From sequence record NC_136442.1: a stretch of DNA of 50,809 nt. One strand, written 5' to 3'. Origin of the DNA: a phage. The translations under genes were made by a program, and so were the position numbers. This document shows positions 3,670-42,927 of the stretch, one piece after another. The number at the start of each line of letters is the position of its first letter. The first letter of the stretch is position 1. A model generated the notes under the pieces. That model had not been told where the DNA came from and did no database searches. It worked only from the letters and a program-made list of their open reading frames with translations.

Positions 3670-6351
3670 ATGGCTGAAAAATACGCTGGCCTAACGCTAG
3701 GCGTTGACGTGTCGCAGGTCAACAATGCTGTTAAATCATTGCAGCAATTCAAGAAGGCAAACGACGACGCAAAAAAAAGCGTTAATGAATTTGTTGATTC
3801 TGAGGTTGTGGCCCGACAGCAAGCAAAACAGCTTGCAGAAGAACTGGCGCGCCAGAAAGCAGAATTTAAGAAAATCCAGGAGTCAATTGATCCCACCGCA
3901 TCAAAGATGGATAAGCTGAGAAAGGCAGCGACACAGCTTGATGCGCTATGGAAAAAGGGCGTTGTTCCTGATCAGACTTTTTTTGAGCTTGGGGCAATTC
4001 TTGAGACGCAGCAAAACAAGCTGATCGCAACCAAAAAAGCGATGACAGAGGAAGGCCGCGCGGCGCTTGAGGAATCAAAGAACAAGGCGCGTGCAGCGGA
4101 AGAGGCTAAAAAATTCGTCCAGGCTTTGCGTGAACAGGAAGAAGCAGCAGGAAAAAGCAAGTCTGAATTGCTGGAAATGAAAGCGGCACAGCTTGGAGTT
4201 AGCCAGGAGGCAGCACCTTACATCGCAAGGATGAAAGAGCAGGAAAAGCAGATCCAGAAACTTGGTATTTCTACAGGCCAATACAAACAAGCAATGCAGC
4301 AATTGCCAATGCAGATCACAGACGTGGTGACTTCACTTGCTTCTGGTATGCCCGTTTGGTTGGTCGCAGTCCAGCAGGGTGGACAGATCAAGGATTCTTT
4401 TGGTGGTGCATCCAATGCTTTAAAAGCGTTGCTATCTTTCCTGAATCCGGTAAACGTGGCGTTTGGTTTGCTTTCCGGCACGCTGGCAATTGCTGCATAT
4501 AATGCCCACAAAGCACAGACAGAGCTTGAGGCAATTAAAAAAACCGTTCAGGAAACAACTGGCTTGAGTGGTGAGTTTGCCGAAAAGATTGCTATAGGAA
4601 TCCAGGAGCTTTCCGACAAGACAGGCGAAAGCGCCGAAGATCTGGCAAAGGCTTACATAACAACGAAAGACGGCGCGAGCGAGGCGATTAAAAAACTGGT
4701 TGACGTTGGAATGACTTATGATGACGCAAAAAAGAAAGTCAACGAGTACAAGGGCGCGTCTAGCTTTGTCAGCTTGAATAACGAAATTGCAAACCACAAA
4801 AACAAAGTCCTTGAGCTGGGCGAGTCGTGGTATGAAGTTTTGAAAGCTAAGCGTGATTACGCTTCCCCGTCCGGCGGCCTGTTAGGTAAAGAGCTTGGAT
4901 ATGTTAATCCTATGCTTAAGTTTGCACTTAACACTTATGAAGACATTGGAAAGGTCGTAAAAGATGCGAATAAGGACATGGCGGAGCGAGCGGAGCGAAT
5001 CGACAAAGAAAACCTGTCATTAAACAGAGTGAGAGCGGCGCAAGAGGCTTTAAACAAAGCCATTGAGGATCAGAAGGGCGTGGCGCGTTCGGCTGATGAA
5101 GAACTGAAAAAGCGCGCGGCTGAAAACGTGGAGTTCAGACGCAAAGAGCTTGAGGAGATCAAGAAGCAGGAGCAGAAAAAGAAAGAGGCTAAAGGGGGAA
5201 TAGTTCGCGGCCCTACTGAGCAGCTTGATAAAGAGTTGTACGTTTTAAAAGCTCAACTGGAAACTCTTAAAGAGCATCGCACTGTTAACGATGTTATTTC
5301 TCGCCAGCGTAAATCTTTATGGAGCATCGAAAAGCAGATCGAGATCCTGGAGAATGCGCAGAGCAAGCGTAAATTGACCGGAGCGGAACAGGCGCTACTA
5401 AGCGAGCAAAAAGCCGTTCTTGAAATGGCAAGACAAAAAGCGGAGCTAGGGGATCAGATTGTTTTGCAGGAGCGCAAAAACAAACTGGAGCAAGATAGTC
5501 TTAAGTTTATCCGTGAAACGGAGGCGGCTATTGATGCGATTGGCCTTAAGCAACTTGGCTACACTGAAAAGCAGATCGAGCGTGAGCTAGAGTTACGCAA
5601 GCTGCGCACCGACTACGAGGCGCAAGGCGGAAGCGTTAGCGACGAAGTTTTTCAGCAAATGGAGACGAAACTTAAGCTGTATTACCAGGCACAAGACGAG
5701 GCGCAAGGCAACTGGTTAGCCGGAGCAAAGAACGCATGGGAGCTATTCGCGGAAGATGCAAACAATGCCTATGGCAATGTTCAGCAGATTGCAAGCGAGG
5801 CGTTAAACGGCCTTACAAACCAATTAGCGAATTTTATCGCTACTGGCAAGGCAAACTTTAAAGACTTCTCGACGGCTATCATCAAAATGATTATTCAGAT
5901 GATCACGAAAATGGTTGTCTTTAATGCGTTATCTGGCCTGATGGGTGGTCAAACCTGGACGATGGGGAGCTTGCTTAAGAATATTGGCGGATTTGCTGGC
6001 GGTGGATACACTGGCGACGGCGGGAAGTATGAGCCAGCCGGAATTGTTCATAAGGGTGAATTTGTCATGACGAAGGAGGCAACGCAGCGTATCGGAGTAG
6101 GCAACTTGTACCGCATGATGCGAGGCTATGCTAACGGCGGCGTTGTTGGTGGTTCCGGCTATACTGGCGGTGGCACTGTCACTGGTGGAGCACCTCAATT
6201 TAACATCGGTGGGATTGATGTTAGCATCAATAACGGCAATGATCCGAAGGGTATCGAAACTGGTGTTAAGATGATCTTTACTGATATGATTAGACGTTCC
6301 TGTATGCAGGGCGGGGAGGTTTACGAATTTGTTATGAGCAAGCGAGGTTGA
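3670..6351 (+). CDS. tail tape measure protein
   Basis: 893 aa, long coiled-coil-rich ORF with glycine-rich C-terminus, directly after G/GT. Confidence 0.85.
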   Translation: MAEKYAGLTLGVDVSQVNNAVKSLQQFKKANDDAKKSVNEFVDSEVVARQQAKQLAEELARQKAEFKKIQESIDPTASKMDKLRKAATQLDALWKKGVVPDQTFFELGAILETQQNKLIATKKAMTEEGRAALEESKNKARAAEEAKKFVQALREQEEAAGKSKSELLEMKAAQLGVSQEAAPYIARMKEQEKQIQKLGISTGQYKQAMQQLPMQITDVVTSLASGMPVWLVAVQQGGQIKDSFGGASNALKALLSFLNPVNVAFGLLSGTLAIAAYNAHKAQTELEAIKKTVQETTGLSGEFAEKIAIGIQELSDKTGESAEDLAKAYITTKDGASEAIKKLVDVGMTYDDAKKKVNEYKGASSFVSLNNEIANHKNKVLELGESWYEVLKAKRDYASPSGGLLGKELGYVNPMLKFALNTYEDIGKVVKDANKDMAERAERIDKENLSLNRVRAAQEALNKAIEDQKGVARSADEELKKRAAENVEFRRKELEEIKKQEQKKKEAKGGIVRGPTEQLDKELYVLKAQLETLKEHRTVNDVISRQRKSLWSIEKQIEILENAQSKRKLTGAEQALLSEQKAVLEMARQKAELGDQIVLQERKNKLEQDSLKFIRETEAAIDAIGLKQLGYTEKQIERELELRKLRTDYEAQGGSVSDEVFQQMETKLKLYYQAQDEAQGNWLAGAKNAWELFAEDANNAYGNVQQIASEALNGLTNQLANFIATGKANFKDFSTAIIKMIIQMITKMVVFNALSGLMGGQTWTMGSLLKNIGGFAGGGYTGDGGKYEPAGIVHKGEFVMTKEATQRIGVGNLYRMMRGYANGGVVGGSGYTGGGTVTGGAPQFNIGGIDVSINNGNDPKGIETGVKMIFTDMIRRSCMQGGEVYEFVMSKRG

Positions 6352-24135: not shown

Positions 24136-24367
24136 GCAAGGAAGAGATGCGGTATGGAATCACGCTAAAGAATGCGGTATTGCCGACGATATAAAGAAGA
24201 TCGCGCAATACTTTGATATTGCAGATGTGAGCATAATTAGCGGCGACAAGATGACTTTCCTCAAGGAAAGGCCGCGAAAAATGGTAAGAGTTCCAGCAGT
24301 TCCAACAAAAATTGATTTCAAAGAGGCAATGGCTAAAATCCGAGAGCCTCGCAAATATTATAAATGA
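24125..24367 (+). CDS. hypothetical protein (80 aa)
   Basis: ORF overlapping previous stop; start uncertain. Confidence 0.45.
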   Translation: MKVEQGRDAVWNHAKECGIADDIKKIAQYFDIADVSIISGDKMTFLKERPRKMVRVPAVPTKIDFKEAMAKIREPRKYYK

Positions 24368-24461
24368 GGATAGTTATCATGTGGCGCTTGTTTGTTCTAC
24401 CGTTACCAGTTATCATCGCTGTTACAGTTATGTACCATATAGTGATGAGATAGGTAGCAGA

Positions 24462-25577
24462 ATGAAAAATGTAAAAATTACAGATGAGAAATTCAAGATC
24501 GAACGGGCGGCAGGTAAGACATATAAACAGATCGCTCAAGAGTACGGAATGAATGTGAGAAGCGTCGAGCGTCGCGCGGCGCGTCTTGCAAAGCAAGGAC
24601 AGCTATCGACCATCGGAGCGCCTGGTTTTGGTGTTCATGGTGAGTCAGTAATGACTGACAAAGAAGGAAATATAATCCTCAAGTGGACCAAAACCAGCAA
24701 GGATAAAGAGCAATTAGAGGCATTGATGCGCGCAGCTATGGAGGCGTTTAGCGAGGAAGTGCCGCGATTAGATCCAGTTCCATTGCAGGAGCGTAATTAT
24801 AATGAAACGCTTTCATTGTATCCGATCTTTGACATGCACTTAGGCGCTATGGCCCATAAGCACGAATGCGGCGAAAATTGGGATACTGCGACGGCAGAGC
24901 GCGTTATGAATAACTTTATCGACTATGCTTTGATGTGCGCGCCGGACAGCGAAAAGGCTGTTATCCTGATTGGTGGCGATATGCTTCATAGCGATGGCCT
25001 GGAGGCTGTGACACCTGCAAGCGGTCACGTACTTGATCAAGATAGCCGATATGCAAAATTGGTTTACGTTGCAATCCGTGCAATGCGTCGCGCAATTAAT
25101 AAAATGCTGTTAAAGCATAAACATGTTGAGGTTCAGATCGTAGAGGGGAATCACGACCAATCAGGAATGATTTGGCTACGCGCAGCAATGGCGGCAGCAT
25201 ATGAGAACGAGCCGCGCGTTTACGTTGATGTTTCTCCTCGCGTTGTTCACCACACGCAATACGGAAAAACTTTCCTTGCGTACCATCACGGGCACACAGT
25301 GCGTAAACCGGAGACTTTGCTAATGATGTGCGCGTCAGATTGGCGGGAGGACTTCGGAAACTCAAAAACGATGTATGCGCACGTAGGGCACTGGCATCAC
25401 CAGACCGTGACGGAAACGTCGCTTGGGATCGTGGAGGTGCATAGCACCCTGGCGGCAAAAGACGCATACGCCGCGCGCGGTGGCTGGAGATCTCGACGCC
25501 GTGCAGCGGTTATCATTTACGACAAAGAGCATGGAGAAGTTGGGCGATTTGTTCACTATCCAGAAATGATGAATTGA
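24462..25577 (+). CDS. calcineurin-like metallophosphoesterase with N-terminal HTH-like segment
   Basis: FDMHLG, GGDMLHSD, EGNHDQ, YHHGH metallophosphatase motifs; N-terminal KTYKQIAQEYGMNVRSVERRAARL. Confidence 0.6.
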   Translation: MKNVKITDEKFKIERAAGKTYKQIAQEYGMNVRSVERRAARLAKQGQLSTIGAPGFGVHGESVMTDKEGNIILKWTKTSKDKEQLEALMRAAMEAFSEEVPRLDPVPLQERNYNETLSLYPIFDMHLGAMAHKHECGENWDTATAERVMNNFIDYALMCAPDSEKAVILIGGDMLHSDGLEAVTPASGHVLDQDSRYAKLVYVAIRAMRRAINKMLLKHKHVEVQIVEGNHDQSGMIWLRAAMAAAYENEPRVYVDVSPRVVHHTQYGKTFLAYHHGHTVRKPETLLMMCASDWREDFGNSKTMYAHVGHWHHQTVTETSLGIVEVHSTLAAKDAYAARGGWRSRRRAAVIIYDKEHGEVGRFVHYPEMMN

Positions 25578-34358: not shown

Positions 34359-34387
34359 TTGACACATTAAATAGCATTATTGATAAT
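34359..34387 (+). promoter_or_regulatory. consensus sigma70-type promoter TTGACA-17-GATAAT for the rightward early block
   Basis: Perfect -35, 17-nt spacer, -10 GATAAT, followed by AGGAGG RBS and ATG 34416. Confidence 0.7.
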
Positions 34388-35695: not shown

Positions 35696-36586
35696 ATGTT
35701 AAAACTTACTGACATTAAATTCCCGATCACCTTCGAATCTCGCGGCGTTGGTCATTTCATGTTTACCGACGAGAAGACATGCACTAAGTTTAACGAATAC
35801 GGAAGTCCAAACGCTTCAACAATGGAGATTGAACACTTCATTGAAGCGCACAATAAACACTACAACTCACTCAGAGACTACGGTTACGCAATGCCAGGCT
35901 ACACCTGTTTCCACTACAAGCCATATAAAGGCCAGGTGTTGCCAGTGCGCTCACCGGAACGCGCAGAGATTCCGATGGTCGAGATGAAAACCTGCGACTA
36001 TAAAAAATTGTGGTGCTTAAGTGTGGACAATATCAAGTATCCGATCACGTTCCGCTCCGCTGGTAATTCAACGATTCGCTACACATCGCGCGACAATGGC
36101 GTTTATAGCAGTGGTCAGAAATCAGAGCTTAAGGTGGATTTCTTTGTTAATGGTCATAATAAATACAATCCGCACAATGAAAAAGATAAGATTTACTATG
36201 TGGAAGACATTACAAAACACTTGTTTGGAGAAACTCCATTCGGCGGCGGAAAGACGTCAATTCAAAAAATAATTGGCGAGGAGATCCACAAAGCGGCTGC
36301 CGAAATGAAAGCGCCTGGAGGCTGGCGTATTGATAAGAGCGCCTTTGCAAATCAAGAAATCGTAACGCAGGGCGCGATTGAAGATATGCCAGTTGCAGCC
36401 ACGCTAAAAGGAGTCCGGCTTGATGATGGTGTGTGGTTTGAATTAACGGCTACACCAAAGACGATCGAGATTCATGATGATGTTGTTATCCTCCTGCTTC
36501 ACTACGGCGGCACTAAAAATCGGACTGTTGCAGGTGAGATCAGCATCAAGCGCGGAACGACGGTTAAGTGGAAGGTAAAGATTTGA
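35696..36586 (+). CDS. hypothetical protein (296 aa) with internal tandem duplication
   Basis: Segments DIKFPITFESRGVGH and NIKYPITFRSAGNST repeated within the protein; AGGAGA RBS. Confidence 0.65.
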   Translation: MLKLTDIKFPITFESRGVGHFMFTDEKTCTKFNEYGSPNASTMEIEHFIEAHNKHYNSLRDYGYAMPGYTCFHYKPYKGQVLPVRSPERAEIPMVEMKTCDYKKLWCLSVDNIKYPITFRSAGNSTIRYTSRDNGVYSSGQKSELKVDFFVNGHNKYNPHNEKDKIYYVEDITKHLFGETPFGGGKTSIQKIIGEEIHKAAAEMKAPGGWRIDKSAFANQEIVTQGAIEDMPVAATLKGVRLDDGVWFELTATPKTIEIHDDVVILLLHYGGTKNRTVAGEISIKRGTTVKWKVKI

Positions 36587-37334: not shown

Positions 37335-38045
37335 ATGAAAAAATACACTTTCGAACTGTGGGGCAAGAAGTACGAATTTACGACAAGCAAGCCGATTGTT
37401 ATCGTTGACCTAGACGGCACACTATCGGACGGATCGCATCGTTTGCATTTGCTGCCAACTGAAAACTTGCACCTTACGGAATCGTGGCGCGAGTTTAACA
37501 GGGCCGCCGCCGGAGATTCACCTATTAAAAGCACTATCGCGGTTATTAACGGTTTATGGGTGTCGGGATTTGCCATCGTCATCTTGACCGGACGCAGCGA
37601 CGAGGTTCGCTATGAAACCTGCAAATGGTTGAATGAGAACGGCGTGAAGTTTGACGAAATCATCATGCGCCGCCATGAGGACAACCGAAAGGATACGGTT
37701 ATTAAAGAAGAAGCCTTGCGCGCTATTGGCCTGGACAACATTGTTTGCGCCTTTGACGATTCGCCGAACGTGGTTAAGCACTTCCGCAGCTTGGGGATCA
37801 CAACCTATCAGGTCACGGAATACGACAAGCCACACGCTCACATACAATCTCACGGCGTGGAATCAATCAAGATAACGAAGCGCGCCCGATTCGTTGGCAG
37901 CAAAGATAGCCTTGTCAATGCCAGCTTTACCAGAGGAATAGCCTATGACGTTGTTTCTTATCATGACAAGAGTTTTATAGTTCATGATGATTCTGGATGC
38001 GCCTGGTCATTCAATCATAGTGACGGCGATTTTGTTAATGCGTAA
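37335..38045 (+). CDS. HAD-superfamily phosphatase (nucleotidase or polynucleotide 3-phosphatase-like)
   Basis: Motif I VIVDLDGTLSDG (DxDGT) near the N-terminus; ATG at 37335 chosen over TTG at 37320. Confidence 0.55.
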   Translation: MKKYTFELWGKKYEFTTSKPIVIVDLDGTLSDGSHRLHLLPTENLHLTESWREFNRAAAGDSPIKSTIAVINGLWVSGFAIVILTGRSDEVRYETCKWLNENGVKFDEIIMRRHEDNRKDTVIKEEALRAIGLDNIVCAFDDSPNVVKHFRSLGITTYQVTEYDKPHAHIQSHGVESIKITKRARFVGSKDSLVNASFTRGIAYDVVSYHDKSFIVHDDSGCAWSFNHSDGDFVNA

Positions 38046-38088
38046 TAGCACTTTTTGTTAAAACATCTCAACGGGCTTGCGGTATAGT
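38045..38088 (+). promoter_or_regulatory. motif-type promoter cassette (consensus motif, 18 nt, TATAGT within hairpin GGGCTT...AAGCCC)
   Basis: Read directly; leader CATCAACAACAAACGAGGA. Confidence 0.6.
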
Positions 38089-38119
38089 AAGCCCATCAAC
38101 AACAAACGAGGATTAAATC

Positions 38120-38383
38120 ATGGCTAACAAGATCGAATTTTTCAAAGCGGTAGACATTATTGATGGCGCGCCTAGCTTCTTTGCGAACCATTCTATTGAC
38201 GGCAAGGATATTGGGTACAACGTTATCCGTCGAGATGGAATATCAAAACTTAGTGACCTGGTAGGCCATATTGTGTCAATCGGGAAATGCGCATGGCCCG
38301 ATTCGCCACGAGAGCCGCGCCGCCGCGACATGATTAATCCTGAATTGCTTTACACGCTGGTAGTAGAGGGAGAAAATAAATGA
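38120..38383 (+). CDS. hypothetical protein (87 aa)
   Basis: GAGGA RBS. Confidence 0.55.
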   Translation: MANKIEFFKAVDIIDGAPSFFANHSIDGKDIGYNVIRRDGISKLSDLVGHIVSIGKCAWPDSPREPRRRDMINPELLYTLVVEGENK

Positions 38384-38565
38384 TTTGGTTACTTGCTTTT
38401 TTGGTTGTTTTTCTTTACATTTCAGGCTTGTTTACGTTCCGCGCGTTGGTGAAATATTCTGACGCGACAGACAAAGACGATAAAATCGTTCTCGCTTTCT
38501 GGTTTGTTTGGGTGTGGTTAGCAATTTACGAGATCATCAGAGACAAACAGAAATTTGAGTGGTGA
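38380..38565 (+). CDS. small membrane protein (61 aa, two hydrophobic segments)
   Basis: ATGA coupling; LLAFLVVFLYISGLF and LAFWFVWVWLAIY segments. Confidence 0.5.
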   Translation: MIWLLAFLVVFLYISGLFTFRALVKYSDATDKDDKIVLAFWFVWVWLAIYEIIRDKQKFEW

Positions 38566-38622
38566 TTCTTGCTATGGCGCATTCATGCAGTGCGCCATGT
38601 TGAGAAAACCTAAAGGGGGGAA

Positions 38623-38853
38623 ATGATGCGTAACTTTGAAAAAATCATTACCAAAAAGAAGCGTCGCGGGTACGATGAGCATGTGGAGCTTGTGAAAAGC
38701 AACGCAAGAAGCGCAACGAAGACAAGAAGCGCGGGAAAAAATTTAATGCGATTTTTCGCTATGGAGGAAACTAAATGCAATTGCCACCATTTAACGAAAA
38801 AAGCGAAGAGATTGCCAAAACTGCATGTCACCTTCGAGAGCTTGCCGACATGA
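38623..38853 (+). CDS. hypothetical basic protein (76 aa)
   Basis: Strong RBS AAAGGGGGG; overlaps start of next ORF. Confidence 0.45.
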   Translation: MMRNFEKIITKKKRRGYDEHVELVKSNARSATKTRSAGKNLMRFFAMEETKCNCHHLTKKAKRLPKLHVTFESLPT

Positions 38854-38966
38854 TAGAGCGCGGTCAGGTTATGATTGTCAATATGGCTATCAAAAGCGAG
38901 AATAGAAATTTCAAGGTTTTAAGCGAGACAACAGAAATTACTGTGTTGAAAGCAAGGGGAGAATAA
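38775..38966 (+). CDS. hypothetical protein (63 aa)
   Basis: Strong RBS GGAGGA 7 nt upstream; overlaps 3' end of the previous ORF in another frame. Confidence 0.45.
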   Translation: MQLPPFNEKSEEIAKTACHLRELADMIERGQVMIVNMAIKSENRNFKVLSETTEITVLKARGE

Positions 38967-38968
38967 TC

Positions 38969-39559
38969 ATGAAGCGAGACATTATTATCCTTAATGGGCC
39001 ACCTGGTTGTGGAAAGGACACTATTGCAGCTTACCTAACGGGCCATCGTTACCCAGCGGTTAAGGCGTCATTCAAACAGCCGATGTTCGATATTGCGTTT
39101 TCCATGCTGGGCGTGTACCGATACGATGAATTTATGGACCTGTACAACGACCGAGAACAAAAAGAAAAGCCTCAAGTTATCTTAGGCGGCAAGTCACCTC
39201 GACAATTCATGATCTGGATTAGCGAGGATGTAATGAAGCCAGTTTTTGGGGATCACTATTTCGGGCGTCGAATGGTTGAAGAGATTCACGAGATGTACCG
39301 AGATTTGGCGGTTGTGATCAGTGATGGCGGATTCCCCGAAGAAATCAAGCCGCTGGTTAAGGCGGGGCATGAGGTGCATATTTGCCGATTGCATCGCGAC
39401 GGCTTCACGTTTGCTGGCGATTCGAGAGACTACATTGACCTGAGCGGTTATCACTATCGAATCCATCACTATGATTTCCACTTGCAGGACGGTAAGCCGG
39501 AACTGGCTGTAAACGAGATCGTCAATGCTGTCAAATGGAAGCACACACAGATTAAATAG
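38969..39559 (+). CDS. P-loop nucleotide kinase (dNMP kinase-like)
   Basis: Walker A NGPPGCGKDT near the N-terminus; GGGGAGAATAATC RBS. Confidence 0.6.
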   Translation: MKRDIIILNGPPGCGKDTIAAYLTGHRYPAVKASFKQPMFDIAFSMLGVYRYDEFMDLYNDREQKEKPQVILGGKSPRQFMIWISEDVMKPVFGDHYFGRRMVEEIHEMYRDLAVVISDGGFPEEIKPLVKAGHEVHICRLHRDGFTFAGDSRDYIDLSGYHYRIHHYDFHLQDGKPELAVNEIVNAVKWKHTQIK

Positions 39560-42896: not shown

Positions 42897-42902
42897 AAAT
42901 CA

Positions 42903-42927
42903 CCCGCCGCACGGCGGGTTTTTTATT
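42903..42927 (+). terminator. intrinsic terminator closing the rightward early block
   Basis: CCCGCCG-CA-CGGCGGG hairpin plus TTTTTTATT. Confidence 0.8.

What the first reader, a model, noticed from the sequence alone, without database searches (positions are those of the whole stretch)
37335..39559. HAD-type phosphatase and P-loop nucleotide kinase encoded as separate genes six genes apart
37335..38045 has a DxDGT HAD motif (VIVDLDGTLSDG) and 38969..39559 has a Walker A NGPPGCGKDT of the dNMP-kinase type. The two activities together resemble the halves of a polynucleotide kinase/phosphatase (RNA or DNA end healing, a known counter to anticodon nuclease defences) or a nucleotide salvage pair. 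They are separated by two small membrane proteins and other ORFs. Which role applies cannot be decided from sequence alone.
Basis: partly seen in the sequence, partly recalled or inferred. Interest (0 to 1): 0.45.

Follow-up and report, generated by a model that had tools for sequence, protein, structure and literature searches.

The report
T1-like phage phosphatase plus dNMP kinase
A T1-like coliphage carries a small phosphatase gene and, four genes downstream, a deoxynucleotide kinase gene; this is a conserved, already annotated nucleotide-recycling pair, not a split RNA/DNA end-repair enzyme, and only the phosphatase's exact substrate remains unknown.

Summary
Both genes are real. 37335..38045 encodes a 236-aa HAD phosphatase of the PNKP-phosphatase family (Pfam PF25109, E 9e-21). 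38969..39559 encodes a 196-aa P-loop kinase. Four ORFs lie between them, not six, and one of them is a membrane protein.

The window is a Warwickvirus-like T1-type phage, 97.7% identical to vB_EcoS-95.

The kinase is a dNMP kinase, not a polynucleotide kinase:
- It shares a PHROG with T4 gp1.
- It is 82% identical to KarlJaspers DNK and 46% to Rao1 DNK. Published work shows Rao1 DNK phosphorylates all four dNMPs.

The phosphatase keeps every catalytic residue of T4 Pnkp but has no kinase domain. The public label "polynucleotide kinase" is therefore a misnomer. Its PHROG also contains T5 Dmp, a 5'-dNMPase.

The order phosphatase then kinase holds in 74 of 80 related contigs, and the two genes overlap or abut in 35. 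When either gene occurs alone, it sits beside nucleotide-metabolism genes.

The phage has no ligase and no tRNA.

Verdict: a known nucleotide-salvage pair. The end-healing reading is not supported. The phosphatase's substrate (3'-phosphate or 5'-nucleotide) is still open.

The parts
37335..38045 (+). Stand-alone HAD (DxDxT) phosphomonoesterase of the Pnkp-phosphatase / T5 Dmp family, 236 aa. There is no kinase domain. Core is residues ~19-180, and the C-terminal extension is residues ~177-236.
37398..37433 (+). HAD motif I, VIVDLDGTLSDG. D25 is the predicted nucleophile (T4 D165) and D27 the general acid/base (T4 D167).
   Evidence: Profile alignment to 1ltq residues 160-173. D25, D27, G28 and T29 are invariant in A1. 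Residue roles in T4 are from PMC3592404.
37862..38045 (+). In-frame C-terminal extension of the phosphatase, ~58 aa, predicted beta-rich, function unknown.
   Evidence: DNA homology to FritzSarasin stops at ~37861 and resumes at ~38044, and that phage has two unrelated small ORFs here. The extension is present in only 26 phage records and is always fused to the HAD. Four predicted strands, pLDDT 50-70.
38120..38383 (+). Intervening small ORF, 87 aa, unknown function, not hydrophobic.
38380..38565 (+). Intervening small membrane protein, 61 aa, two hydrophobic segments (phrog_9755).
38623..38853 (+). Intervening small basic ORF. Its first 24 aa match the 47-aa CDS0081 of NorthRox, then the frames differ.
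38775..38966 (+). Intervening small ORF, 63 aa (phrog_16293), ending 2 nt before the kinase start codon.
38969..39559 (+). Deoxynucleoside monophosphate kinase (phage DNK, T4 gp1 family), 196 aa.
38993..39022 (+). Walker A / P-loop, NGPPGCGKDT. K16 corresponds to Rao1 DNK K15, whose K15A mutant is inactive.
24462..25577 (+). Metallophosphoesterase 'DNA repair exonuclease' (phrog_704) with an N-terminal HTH. Its orthologue lies directly upstream of the phosphatase-kinase pair in Webervirus and Rao1. It is listed as a likely third member of the ancestral block and is unlinked here.
   Evidence: phrog_704 E 4.6e-148. 57% identical to Rao1 gp56. Gene order in L003 and L091. The ORF listed from TTG 24312 probably starts at ATG 24462, by comparison with relatives.

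Best explanation
The two genes form a conserved, co-expressed nucleotide-metabolism pair of T1-like phages. They are not two halves of an end-healing enzyme.

The kinase is a broad-specificity dNMP kinase. It converts 5'-dNMPs, released when the phage breaks down host DNA, into dNDPs. Host Ndk then makes dNTPs for phage DNA synthesis.

The phosphatase is an active Asp-nucleophile phosphomonoesterase of the Pnkp-phosphatase / T5 Dmp family that works in the same pathway. My best guess for its step (about 0.4) is removal of 3'-phosphates from deoxynucleotides or short breakdown fragments, so that they can be processed to 5'-dNMPs. Nearly as likely (about 0.3-0.35) is a selective 5'-nucleotidase.

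Shown here or in the literature: the family, fold and catalytic residues of both proteins; dNMP kinase activity of orthologues; the conserved order and coupling.

Inferred: the substrate of the phosphatase, and the link to host-DNA recycling in this particular phage.
For: Kinase:
- It shares a PHROG with T4 gp1.
- hhalign against gp1 gives 88% probability over the N-terminal 74 columns.
- Rao1 DNK (46% identical) phosphorylates dAMP, dGMP, dCMP and dTMP in vitro, its deletion lowers dATP during infection, and K15A inactivates it. KarlJaspers DNK (82% identical) is active in vivo.

Phosphatase:
- Pfam HAD_PNKP.
- Fold matches to Pnkp1 and T4 Pnkp.
- D25, D27, T85, R87, D120, K124, D141 and D142 align to T4 D165, D167, S211, R213, D254, K258, D277 and D278, and all are invariant in the family.
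- T4 Pnkp itself hydrolyses the mononucleotide 3'-dTMP.

Linkage:
- 74 of 80 phosphatase-centred viral contigs carry the kinase downstream on the same strand within 2.1 kb, and the genes overlap or abut in 35.
- 67 of 78 kinase-centred contigs have the phosphatase upstream.
- The same order occurs in an Aeromonas Autographiviridae phage.

Context:
- The kinase alone sits next to dUTPase in Chaseviridae and near thymidylate synthase in Vequintavirus.
- A 47%-identical stand-alone phosphatase overlaps the end of nrdB in Krischvirus, which also has a complete pseT and rnlA elsewhere.
- A Pbunavirus HAD fusion sits by thyX.

Genome and literature:
- There is no ligase, DNA polymerase or tRNA in this genome type.
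- T1 and TLS degrade host DNA and reuse the nucleotides (PMC11447400).
- The KanT1 paper reads the two genes as a nucleotide-supply extension of the replication module (PMC13164509).
Against: - No member of the T1-type phosphatase clade has been assayed, so its substrate is inferred.
- None of the nucleases recognisable in the phage (RecE-like exonuclease, metallophosphoesterase, VRR-NUC) is of a kind known to leave 3'-phosphates. A 3'-phosphatase step in salvage therefore lacks an identified source of substrate (my knowledge of these families).
- Deleting dnk in Rao1 had no measurable fitness cost, so salvage through this kinase is dispensable in the laboratory.
- In an Aeromonas podophage the pair is followed directly by an ATP-dependent DNA ligase, which also fits a DNA end-repair cassette.
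- The HAD model is only moderately confident (pLDDT 70, with the cap region below 50).
Confidence: 0.62

Rival explanations
1. The phosphatase is a Dmp-like 5'-deoxynucleotidase, as in T5, co-expressed with the kinase. It either shapes or cleans the dNMP pool (for example by removing dIMP, dUMP or methylated dNMPs), or it keeps the phage's own dNMP kinase from triggering nucleotide-sensing immunity such as Kongming.
For: - T5 Dmp falls in the same PHROG as the window protein (phrog_415, E 3.6e-57 over its full length).
- Both share DLDGT followed by an HR dyad, a longer insert after motif I than T4 Pnkp, and the TxR, KD...K and DD motifs.
- T5 Dmp is the only stand-alone member of this group with a measured activity, and it blocks Kongming.
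- Dmp homologues frequently co-occur with DNKs.
- The nucleotide-metabolism contexts fit.
Against: - Pairwise similarity to Dmps is marginal (BLASTP E 0.13 to T5 and 6e-4 to VPG01; family HMM 6-10 bits). For a PseT phosphatase domain it is E 2e-13 and 51 bits.
- Rao1 carries a 57%-identical orthologue directly upstream of its DNK, yet it is Kongming-sensitive, accumulates dAMP, and is rescued by T5 Dmp supplied in trans. This is not decisive, because Bas26 has a working Dmp and is also sensitive.
- A broad 5'-dNMPase made in step with a dNMP kinase would create a futile cycle.
Confidence: 0.22
2. The phosphatase alone is a DNA 3'-phosphatase that repairs nicks or ends in phage DNA, restoring 3'-OH ends that host ligase or polymerase can use. 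On this reading its linkage to the kinase only reflects shared membership of the DNA-metabolism module.
For: - Its closest characterised relatives are polynucleotide 3'-phosphatases.
- It follows a metallophosphoesterase 'DNA repair exonuclease' in Webervirus, Rao1 and phage Tola, and a DNA ligase closes the block in Tola.
Against: - Translational coupling to a nucleotide kinase in 35 of 80 contigs, and to nrdB in Krischvirus, points to nucleotide metabolism.
- E. coli already has DNA 3'-phosphatase activity in Xth and Nfo (my knowledge).
- The insert after motif I, invariant across the clade, is longer than in T4 Pnkp. In HAD enzymes a larger cap tends to go with small substrates (general knowledge, Burroughs et al. 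2006).
Confidence: 0.1
3. The two proteins together act as a split polynucleotide kinase/phosphatase. They heal RNA or DNA ends (3'-phosphate and 5'-OH) to counter anticodon nucleases or similar defences.
For: - The phosphatase belongs to the Pnkp phosphatase family.
- The two genes are tightly linked.
- Public records call the first gene '3'-phosphatase, 5'-polynucleotide kinase'.
Against: - The kinase belongs to the gp1/DNK family. It has demonstrated dNMP kinase orthologues and no detectable similarity to Pnkp kinase domains.
- T4 carries gp1 and Pnkp as separate enzymes.
- There is no RNA or DNA ligase and no tRNA gene in the phage.
- The host RNA ligase RtcB needs 3'-phosphate and 5'-OH ends, so healing would block it rather than help (established knowledge; RtcB reference in PMC3592404).
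- Krischvirus keeps the stand-alone phosphatase in addition to a full pseT plus rnlA.
- The public label comes from a PHROG name that also covers T5 Dmp.
Confidence: 0.04

Closest known systems
Phage dNMP kinases (DNK): Rao1 gp58 (R1DNK), KarlJaspers/Bas06 DNK, T4 gp1, T5 Dnk
   Same: - Same PHROG as T4 gp1 (phrog_139), the same GxxxxGKDT P-loop and the same fold as T4 gp1 (1dek).
- 82% identical to KarlJaspers DNK and 46-48% to R1DNK.
- Residues hit by the Rao1 escape mutations (M45, R61, L136) and the catalytic K15 are conserved here as M46, R62, L141 and K16.
   Different: - Only ~16% identical to T4 gp1 in the structural alignment, and shorter (196 vs 241 aa).
- The substrate range of this particular protein has not been measured.
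- T4 gp1 does not use dAMP or dCMP, whereas R1DNK uses all four dNMPs.
Phosphatase domain of T4 polynucleotide kinase-phosphatase (PseT) and of bacterial Pnkp1 (PDB 1ltq, 5uj0, 4xrp)
   Same: - Same Pfam family (PF25109).
- 28-29% identity over ~115 structurally aligned residues.
- Every catalytic and metal-binding residue is conserved.
   Different: - It is a stand-alone protein with no N-terminal P-loop kinase domain.
- It has ~11 extra residues, invariant within its clade, directly after motif I.
- It has an N-terminal beta-hairpin and, in this phage, an added C-terminal domain.
- The genome has no partner ligase.
T5 Dmp, deoxynucleoside-5'-monophosphatase (anti-Kongming factor)
   Same: - Same PHROG (phrog_415).
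- It is also a stand-alone HAD.
- It shares the DLDGT-x4-HR signature and an insert of similar length after motif I.
- It occurs in phages that also encode a DNK.
   Different: - Pairwise similarity is marginal (E 0.13; 6e-4 to the Vibrio VPG01 Dmp).
- T5 Dmp is a pre-early gene far from dnk, while this gene is linked and often translationally coupled to dnk.
- The Rao1 orthologue does not protect Rao1 against Kongming.

Membership tests
Bifunctional polynucleotide 5'-kinase/3'-phosphatase (T4 Pnkp type) | A P-loop polynucleotide kinase domain (GxxGxGKS) and a DxDxT phosphatase domain in one polypeptide | tested here: not met
   The 236-aa protein has only the HAD_PNKP domain (residues 21-162), and residues 1-17 form a beta-hairpin. 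It matches phrog_505 only over the phosphatase half, positions 153-292 of 295.
Bifunctional polynucleotide 5'-kinase/3'-phosphatase (T4 Pnkp type) | If split, the separate kinase should be homologous to the Pnkp kinase domain | tested here: not met
   - The kinase profile A2 does not detect the PseT kinase domain in L004 at E<=0.01.
- PseT hits phrog_505 and phrog_2071, not phrog_139.
Bifunctional polynucleotide 5'-kinase/3'-phosphatase (T4 Pnkp type) | A partner sealing enzyme (RNA ligase or DNA ligase) encoded by the same genome | tested here: not met
   No ligase is annotated in the co-generic FritzSarasin genome. The unannotated larger window ORFs that were scanned show no ligase domain. 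Small ORFs were not all scanned.
HAD / DxDxT acylphosphatase, Pnkp-phosphatase family (Pfam PF25109) | Motif I DxDxT; motif II S/T (with the Arg of the Pnkp family); motif III Lys; motif IV DD | tested here: met
   - Motif I: D25-L-D27-G-T29.
- Motif II: T85-G-R87.
- Motif III: K124, with D120.
- Motif IV: D141-D142.
- These align to T4 D165/D167, S211/R213, K258/D254 and D277/D278 and are invariant in 44 sequences. The Pfam score is 75 bits against a cutoff of 27.6.
HAD / DxDxT acylphosphatase, Pnkp-phosphatase family (Pfam PF25109) | Polynucleotide 3'-phosphatase activity | not testable with these tools
   This needs enzyme assays. No member of the T1-type clade was found to have been assayed.
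Phage dNMP kinase (T4 gp1 / DNK, phrog_139) | Sequence membership in the same family as a biochemically defined dNMP kinase | tested here: met
   The window kinase hits phrog_139 at 4.2e-51 (profile positions 81-261), and T4 gp1 hits phrog_139 at 1.8e-65 (83-261). BLASTP to Rao1 DNK gives 45.8% identity, E 3.5e-58.
Phage dNMP kinase (T4 gp1 / DNK, phrog_139) | The gp1-type fold and the GK(D)T P-loop | tested here: met
Phage dNMP kinase (T4 gp1 / DNK, phrog_139) | ATP-dependent phosphorylation of dNMPs to dNDPs | not testable with these tools
   This is shown in the literature for the 46%-identical Rao1 DNK in vitro, and indirectly in vivo for the 82%-identical KarlJaspers DNK. This protein itself has not been assayed.
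T5 Dmp-type 5'-deoxynucleotidase | Close sequence relationship to T5 Dmp | tested here: inconclusive
   Both fall in the same PHROG. Directly, however, hhalign gives only 31% probability and E 5e-4, BLASTP gives E 0.13, and the family HMM gives 6-10 bits for three Dmps against 51 bits for PseT.
T5 Dmp-type 5'-deoxynucleotidase | Depletes 5'-dNMPs in infected cells and blocks Kongming | not testable with these tools
   Indirect literature evidence points against this for the clade. Rao1, which carries an orthologue (57% identical), is Kongming-sensitive and accumulates dAMP.

The most novel reading that the evidence does not exclude
The T1-type stand-alone phosphatase is a selective nucleotidase that edits the salvage stream feeding the phage's broad dNMP kinase. 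It would remove non-canonical or signal-prone dNMPs released from host DNA, such as dIMP, dUMP, N6-methyl-dAMP or 5-methyl-dCMP. That would prevent their incorporation and also blunt immune systems that sense such nucleotides (Kongming through dITP, Metis through m6dAMP). If so, it would be a new class of counter-defence enzyme, so far hidden under the label 'polynucleotide kinase' in thousands of phage genomes.
Probability: 0.1. Interest if true: 0.7.

Novelty: already known. Interest (0 to 1): 0.28.

Why it matters
For annotation, the gene labelled "polynucleotide kinase" or "3'-phosphatase, 5'-polynucleotide kinase" in T1-like phage records has no kinase domain. The PHROG behind that label (phrog_415) also contains T5 Dmp, a 5'-deoxynucleotidase. 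T1-like phages should therefore not be credited with an RNA or DNA end-healing capacity, or an anti-anticodon-nuclease capacity, on this basis.

For biology, the kinase partner is now known to be both a salvage enzyme and the trigger of Kongming immunity. The phosphatase is usually encoded directly upstream and often translationally coupled, yet it has never been assayed. Finding its substrate would fill a gap in how T1-like phages recycle host DNA. It might also reveal a counter-defence role. That part is a modest but concrete open question. The rest of the finding is ordinary.

Tried and rejected
- **Split-Pnkp reading.** Rejected on the kinase family, the absence of a ligase and the Krischvirus redundancy.
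- **Hidden ligase or polymerase.** I scanned the larger unannotated ORFs of the window. Pfam and PHROG found a RecE-like PDDEXK nuclease, Erf, VRR-NUC, DUF7174 and a metallophosphoesterase, but no ligase.
- **tRNA genes**, as a hint of tRNA-targeting conflicts: none.
- **Sequence search of the kinase against PDB**, as a single sequence and as a profile: only P-loop noise. The link to T4 gp1 came from the fold search, the PHROG and hhalign.
- **NCBIfam**: no family reaches its cutoff for either protein, nor for T4 gp1 or T5 Dmp.
- **Is the C-terminal extension a fused copy of the small ORF that follows the gene in FritzSarasin?** No, they are unrelated. I found no homologue outside the fusion and no family assignment.
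- **A conserved homologous trio of nuclease, phosphatase and kinase.** The upstream metallophosphoesterases of Drexlerviridae (phrog_704) and of podophages (phrog_221) are different families, so only the general arrangement is shared.
- **Retron Eco2 paper**, which surfaced in the literature search: irrelevant, since it only uses T4 PNK as a reagent.
- **Foldseek against viral models**: mostly proteins carrying the same 'polynucleotide kinase' label, and it could not separate the Dmp-like and PseT-like readings.
- **Promoter and terminator scan**: counts are near shuffle expectation. It is merely compatible with one rightward transcription unit running from ~34.36 kb to the strong terminator at 42902..42919.
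- **Not run**: a search for natural phosphatase-kinase fusions in the 1.84-billion-protein library. No fusion was seen in 158 loci.
Full report
**What the window is.** The 3-kb stretch around the finding is 97.7% identical to Escherichia phage vB_EcoS-95 and 95-97% identical to tonnikala, NorthRox, FritzSarasin and SECphi27. These are Drexlerviridae of subfamily Tempevirinae, genus Warwickvirus, so this is a T1-like siphophage of E. coli. The co-generic, well-annotated FritzSarasin genome encodes:
- structural and lysis genes
- a RecE-like exonuclease, Erf and SSB
- a primase and two helicases
- Dam and Dcm methylases

It has no DNA polymerase and no ligase. The window has no tRNA genes.

**Observation.** Both ORFs exist as described.
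- 37335..38045 (236 aa) carries VIVDLDGTLSDG at residues 22-33.
- 38969..39559 (196 aa) carries NGPPGCGKDT at residues 9-18.
- Both are strongly supported families: Pfam HAD_PNKP E 8.8e-21, phrog_415 E 1.3e-67 and phrog_139 E 4.2e-51. They have 571 and 444 homologues respectively at E<=1e-5, almost all on ~50-kb contigs.
- Four ORFs lie between the two genes, not six. Only 38380..38565 is clearly a membrane protein. FritzSarasin does have six intervening genes.

**The kinase.**
- Pfam and PDB sequence searches see only a P-loop.
- T4 gp1 itself falls in the same PHROG over the same profile region (1.8e-65). A direct profile comparison gives 88% probability over the N-terminal half, aligning GKDT, the xPxxD motif, DRE and GKSP.
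- A genuine PseT falls in other PHROGs and is not detected by the kinase profile.

Published experiments settle the activity of this clade. In the Kongming study (bioRxiv 10.1101/2024.12.20.629578), the T1-like phage Rao1 escapes immunity through mutations in gp58, a dNMP kinase named R1DNK.
- Purified R1DNK phosphorylates dAMP, dGMP, dCMP and dTMP, and weakly dIMP.
- The K15A mutant is inactive.
- Deleting the gene lowers dATP during infection.
- The DNKs of KarlJaspers (Bas06) and of a Klebsiella Webervirus also trigger the system.
- The window kinase is 45.8% identical to R1DNK (E 3.5e-58) and 82% identical to the KarlJaspers DNK. K16 and the residues hit by the Rao1 escape mutations are conserved.

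**The phosphatase.**
- The only recognisable domain is the Pnkp-type HAD, and there is no kinase domain.
- From the profile alignment, the following residues correspond, and all are invariant in 44 family members:

| Window | T4 Pnkp |
|---|---|
| D25, D27 | D165, D167 |
| T85-G-R87 | S211-G-R213 |
| R112 | R246 |
| D116 | D250 |
| R118, K119, D120 | R252, K253, D254 |
| K124 | K258 |
| D141, D142 | D277, D278 |

- In T4, D165 is the nucleophile and D167 the general acid/base. S211 and K258 hold the phosphate, and D165 and D278 hold Mg2+. The T4 enzyme also hydrolyses the mononucleotide 3'-dTMP (PMC3592404). The window protein should therefore be an active phosphomonoesterase.

The public labels "polynucleotide kinase" and "3'-phosphatase, 5'-polynucleotide kinase" are misnomers that come from the PHROG name.

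**Unexpected link to T5 Dmp.** The same PHROG also contains T5 Dmp over its full length (E 3.6e-57). T5 Dmp is the classical deoxynucleoside-5'-monophosphatase and was recently shown to be an anti-Kongming factor.
- The window protein and the Dmps share DLDGT followed by an HR dyad, and a longer insert after motif I than PseT has.
- Directly, however, the window protein is much nearer to PseT. BLASTP gives 2e-13 and the family HMM 51 bits, against E 0.13 for T5 Dmp, 6e-4 for VPG01 Dmp and 6-10 bits for the Dmps.
- The residues that can be aligned are common to all three clades, so they do not tell 3' from 5' specificity.

**Linkage.**
- Among 80 IMG/VR loci retrieved with the phosphatase, 74 carry the kinase downstream on the same strand, never more than 2.1 kb away. 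In 35 the genes overlap or abut. In two of the other six the contig ends shortly after the phosphatase. Four 43-kb contigs lack the kinase.
- Among 78 kinase-centred loci, 67 have the phosphatase upstream in the same orientation.
- No fusion protein was seen.
- In Webervirus and in Rao1 the order is metallophosphoesterase "DNA repair exonuclease", then phosphatase, then kinase, then the lysis genes. The window's copy of that exonuclease is at 24462..25577, 57% identical to Rao1 gp56.
- An Aeromonas Autographiviridae phage has metallophosphoesterase, phosphatase, kinase and DNA ligase with overlapping stops and starts.
- Related podophage-like contigs have endonuclease VII, metallophosphoesterase and kinase without the phosphatase.

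**Context when either gene stands alone.**
- The kinase lies between DNA ligase and dUTPase in Chaseviridae and near thymidylate synthase in Vequintavirus.
- A 47%-identical stand-alone phosphatase overlaps the stop codon of nrdB in the td-nrdA-nrdB cluster of a Krischvirus. That phage also has a complete pseT and rnlA 4 kb away, so the stand-alone enzyme is not simply a replacement for PseT.
- A more distant HAD fusion in Pbunavirus sits next to thyX.

**Interpretation.** T1 and TLS degrade the host chromosome and reuse its nucleotides (PMC11447400). The KanT1 study reads these two genes as a nucleotide-supply extension of the replication module (PMC13164509). I conclude that the pair is a nucleotide-metabolism module. 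The kinase step is well supported.

The phosphatase step is inferred.
- I lean slightly towards a 3'-phosphomonoesterase acting on nucleotides or short fragments. It is nearer to PseT, and a broad 5'-dNMPase co-translated with a dNMP kinase would be a futile cycle. In addition, Rao1, with its orthologue, still accumulates dAMP and still triggers Kongming, while T5 Dmp supplied in trans rescues it.
- A selective 5'-nucleotidase is nearly as likely.

The end-healing reading fails on four counts:
- the family of the kinase
- the lack of any ligase
- host RtcB needs unhealed ends
- the coexistence of this phosphatase with a full PseT plus RnlA in Krischvirus

**The C-terminal extension.** The last ~58 residues of the window's phosphatase (nt 37862..38043) are absent from most relatives.
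- They replace two unrelated small ORFs of FritzSarasin.
- They occur in only 26 phage records, always fused to the HAD, in two sequence types.
- They are predicted to be beta-rich, at low confidence.
- Their role is unknown.

**Verdict.** The domain calls were right, and the salvage option is the supported one. The feature is already annotated and discussed for near-identical phages, and its kinase has been characterised in orthologues. What remains open is the substrate of the widespread, mislabelled stand-alone phosphatase.

Noticed in passing
Kinase homologues P0184, P0208, P0215, P0230, P0235 (alignment A2); not the window protein: Several dNMP kinase homologues end in an acidic tail such as ...DD-IPW or ...EDDIIPW. 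This resembles the C-terminal tip of bacterial SSB and could tether the kinase to replication proteins.
   Followed up: no
window 37862..38045: A ~58-aa beta-rich C-terminal extension is fused to the phosphatase. It occurs only in 26 Warwickvirus-like phage records, is always fused, and comes in two sequence types (>=92% and ~69% identical). It occupies the place of two unrelated small ORFs in FritzSarasin.
   Followed up: partly
window 38623..38853 versus 38775..38966: The small basic ORF starting at 38623 matches the 47-aa NorthRox CDS0081 for its first 24 residues. It then continues in another frame (an indel near 38692), so it overlaps the next ORF. This could be a frameshifted small gene or a variant allele.
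   Followed up: partly
window 24312..25577 (probable start ATG 24462): A metallophosphoesterase 'DNA repair exonuclease' (phrog_704) with an N-terminal helix-turn-helix. Its sequence carries the classic DxH, GDxxD, GNHD and GHxH motifs, although Pfam barely detects it. Its orthologue directly precedes the phosphatase-kinase pair in Webervirus and Rao1.
   Followed up: partly
PHROG phrog_415 (library-level observation); T5 dmp at L092:124-858 (-): The PHROG named 'polynucleotide kinase' contains T5 Dmp, a 5'-deoxynucleotidase, over its full length. The name is therefore misleading for every stand-alone member, and it has been propagated into many GenBank records.
   Followed up: yes
L004 (Escherichia phage Ec_Makalu_003, Krischvirus) 4998..5474: A T4-like phage carries a second, stand-alone Pnkp-type phosphatase, 47% identical to the T1-type protein. 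It overlaps the end of nrdB, and the phage also has a full pseT and rnlA nearby.
   Followed up: partly
L086 (Vibrio phage phi-A318) 3670..4005: In this podophage the slot between the metallophosphoesterase and the dNMP kinase holds a 111-aa fragment resembling nucleoside 2-deoxyribosyltransferase instead of the HAD phosphatase.
   Followed up: no
window 35696..36586: This 296-aa protein of unknown function (phrog_7116) matches the family profile in two stretches and shows an internal duplication (for example ...DIKFPITFESRG... and ...NIKYPITFRSAG...).
   Followed up: no
window 34359..34387 and 42902..42919: A near-consensus sigma-70-like promoter (TTGACA-17-GATAAT) and a strong bidirectional GC-rich terminator bracket the whole rightward block of small genes that contains both genes of the finding. 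No strong terminator-like site lies between them.
   Followed up: no
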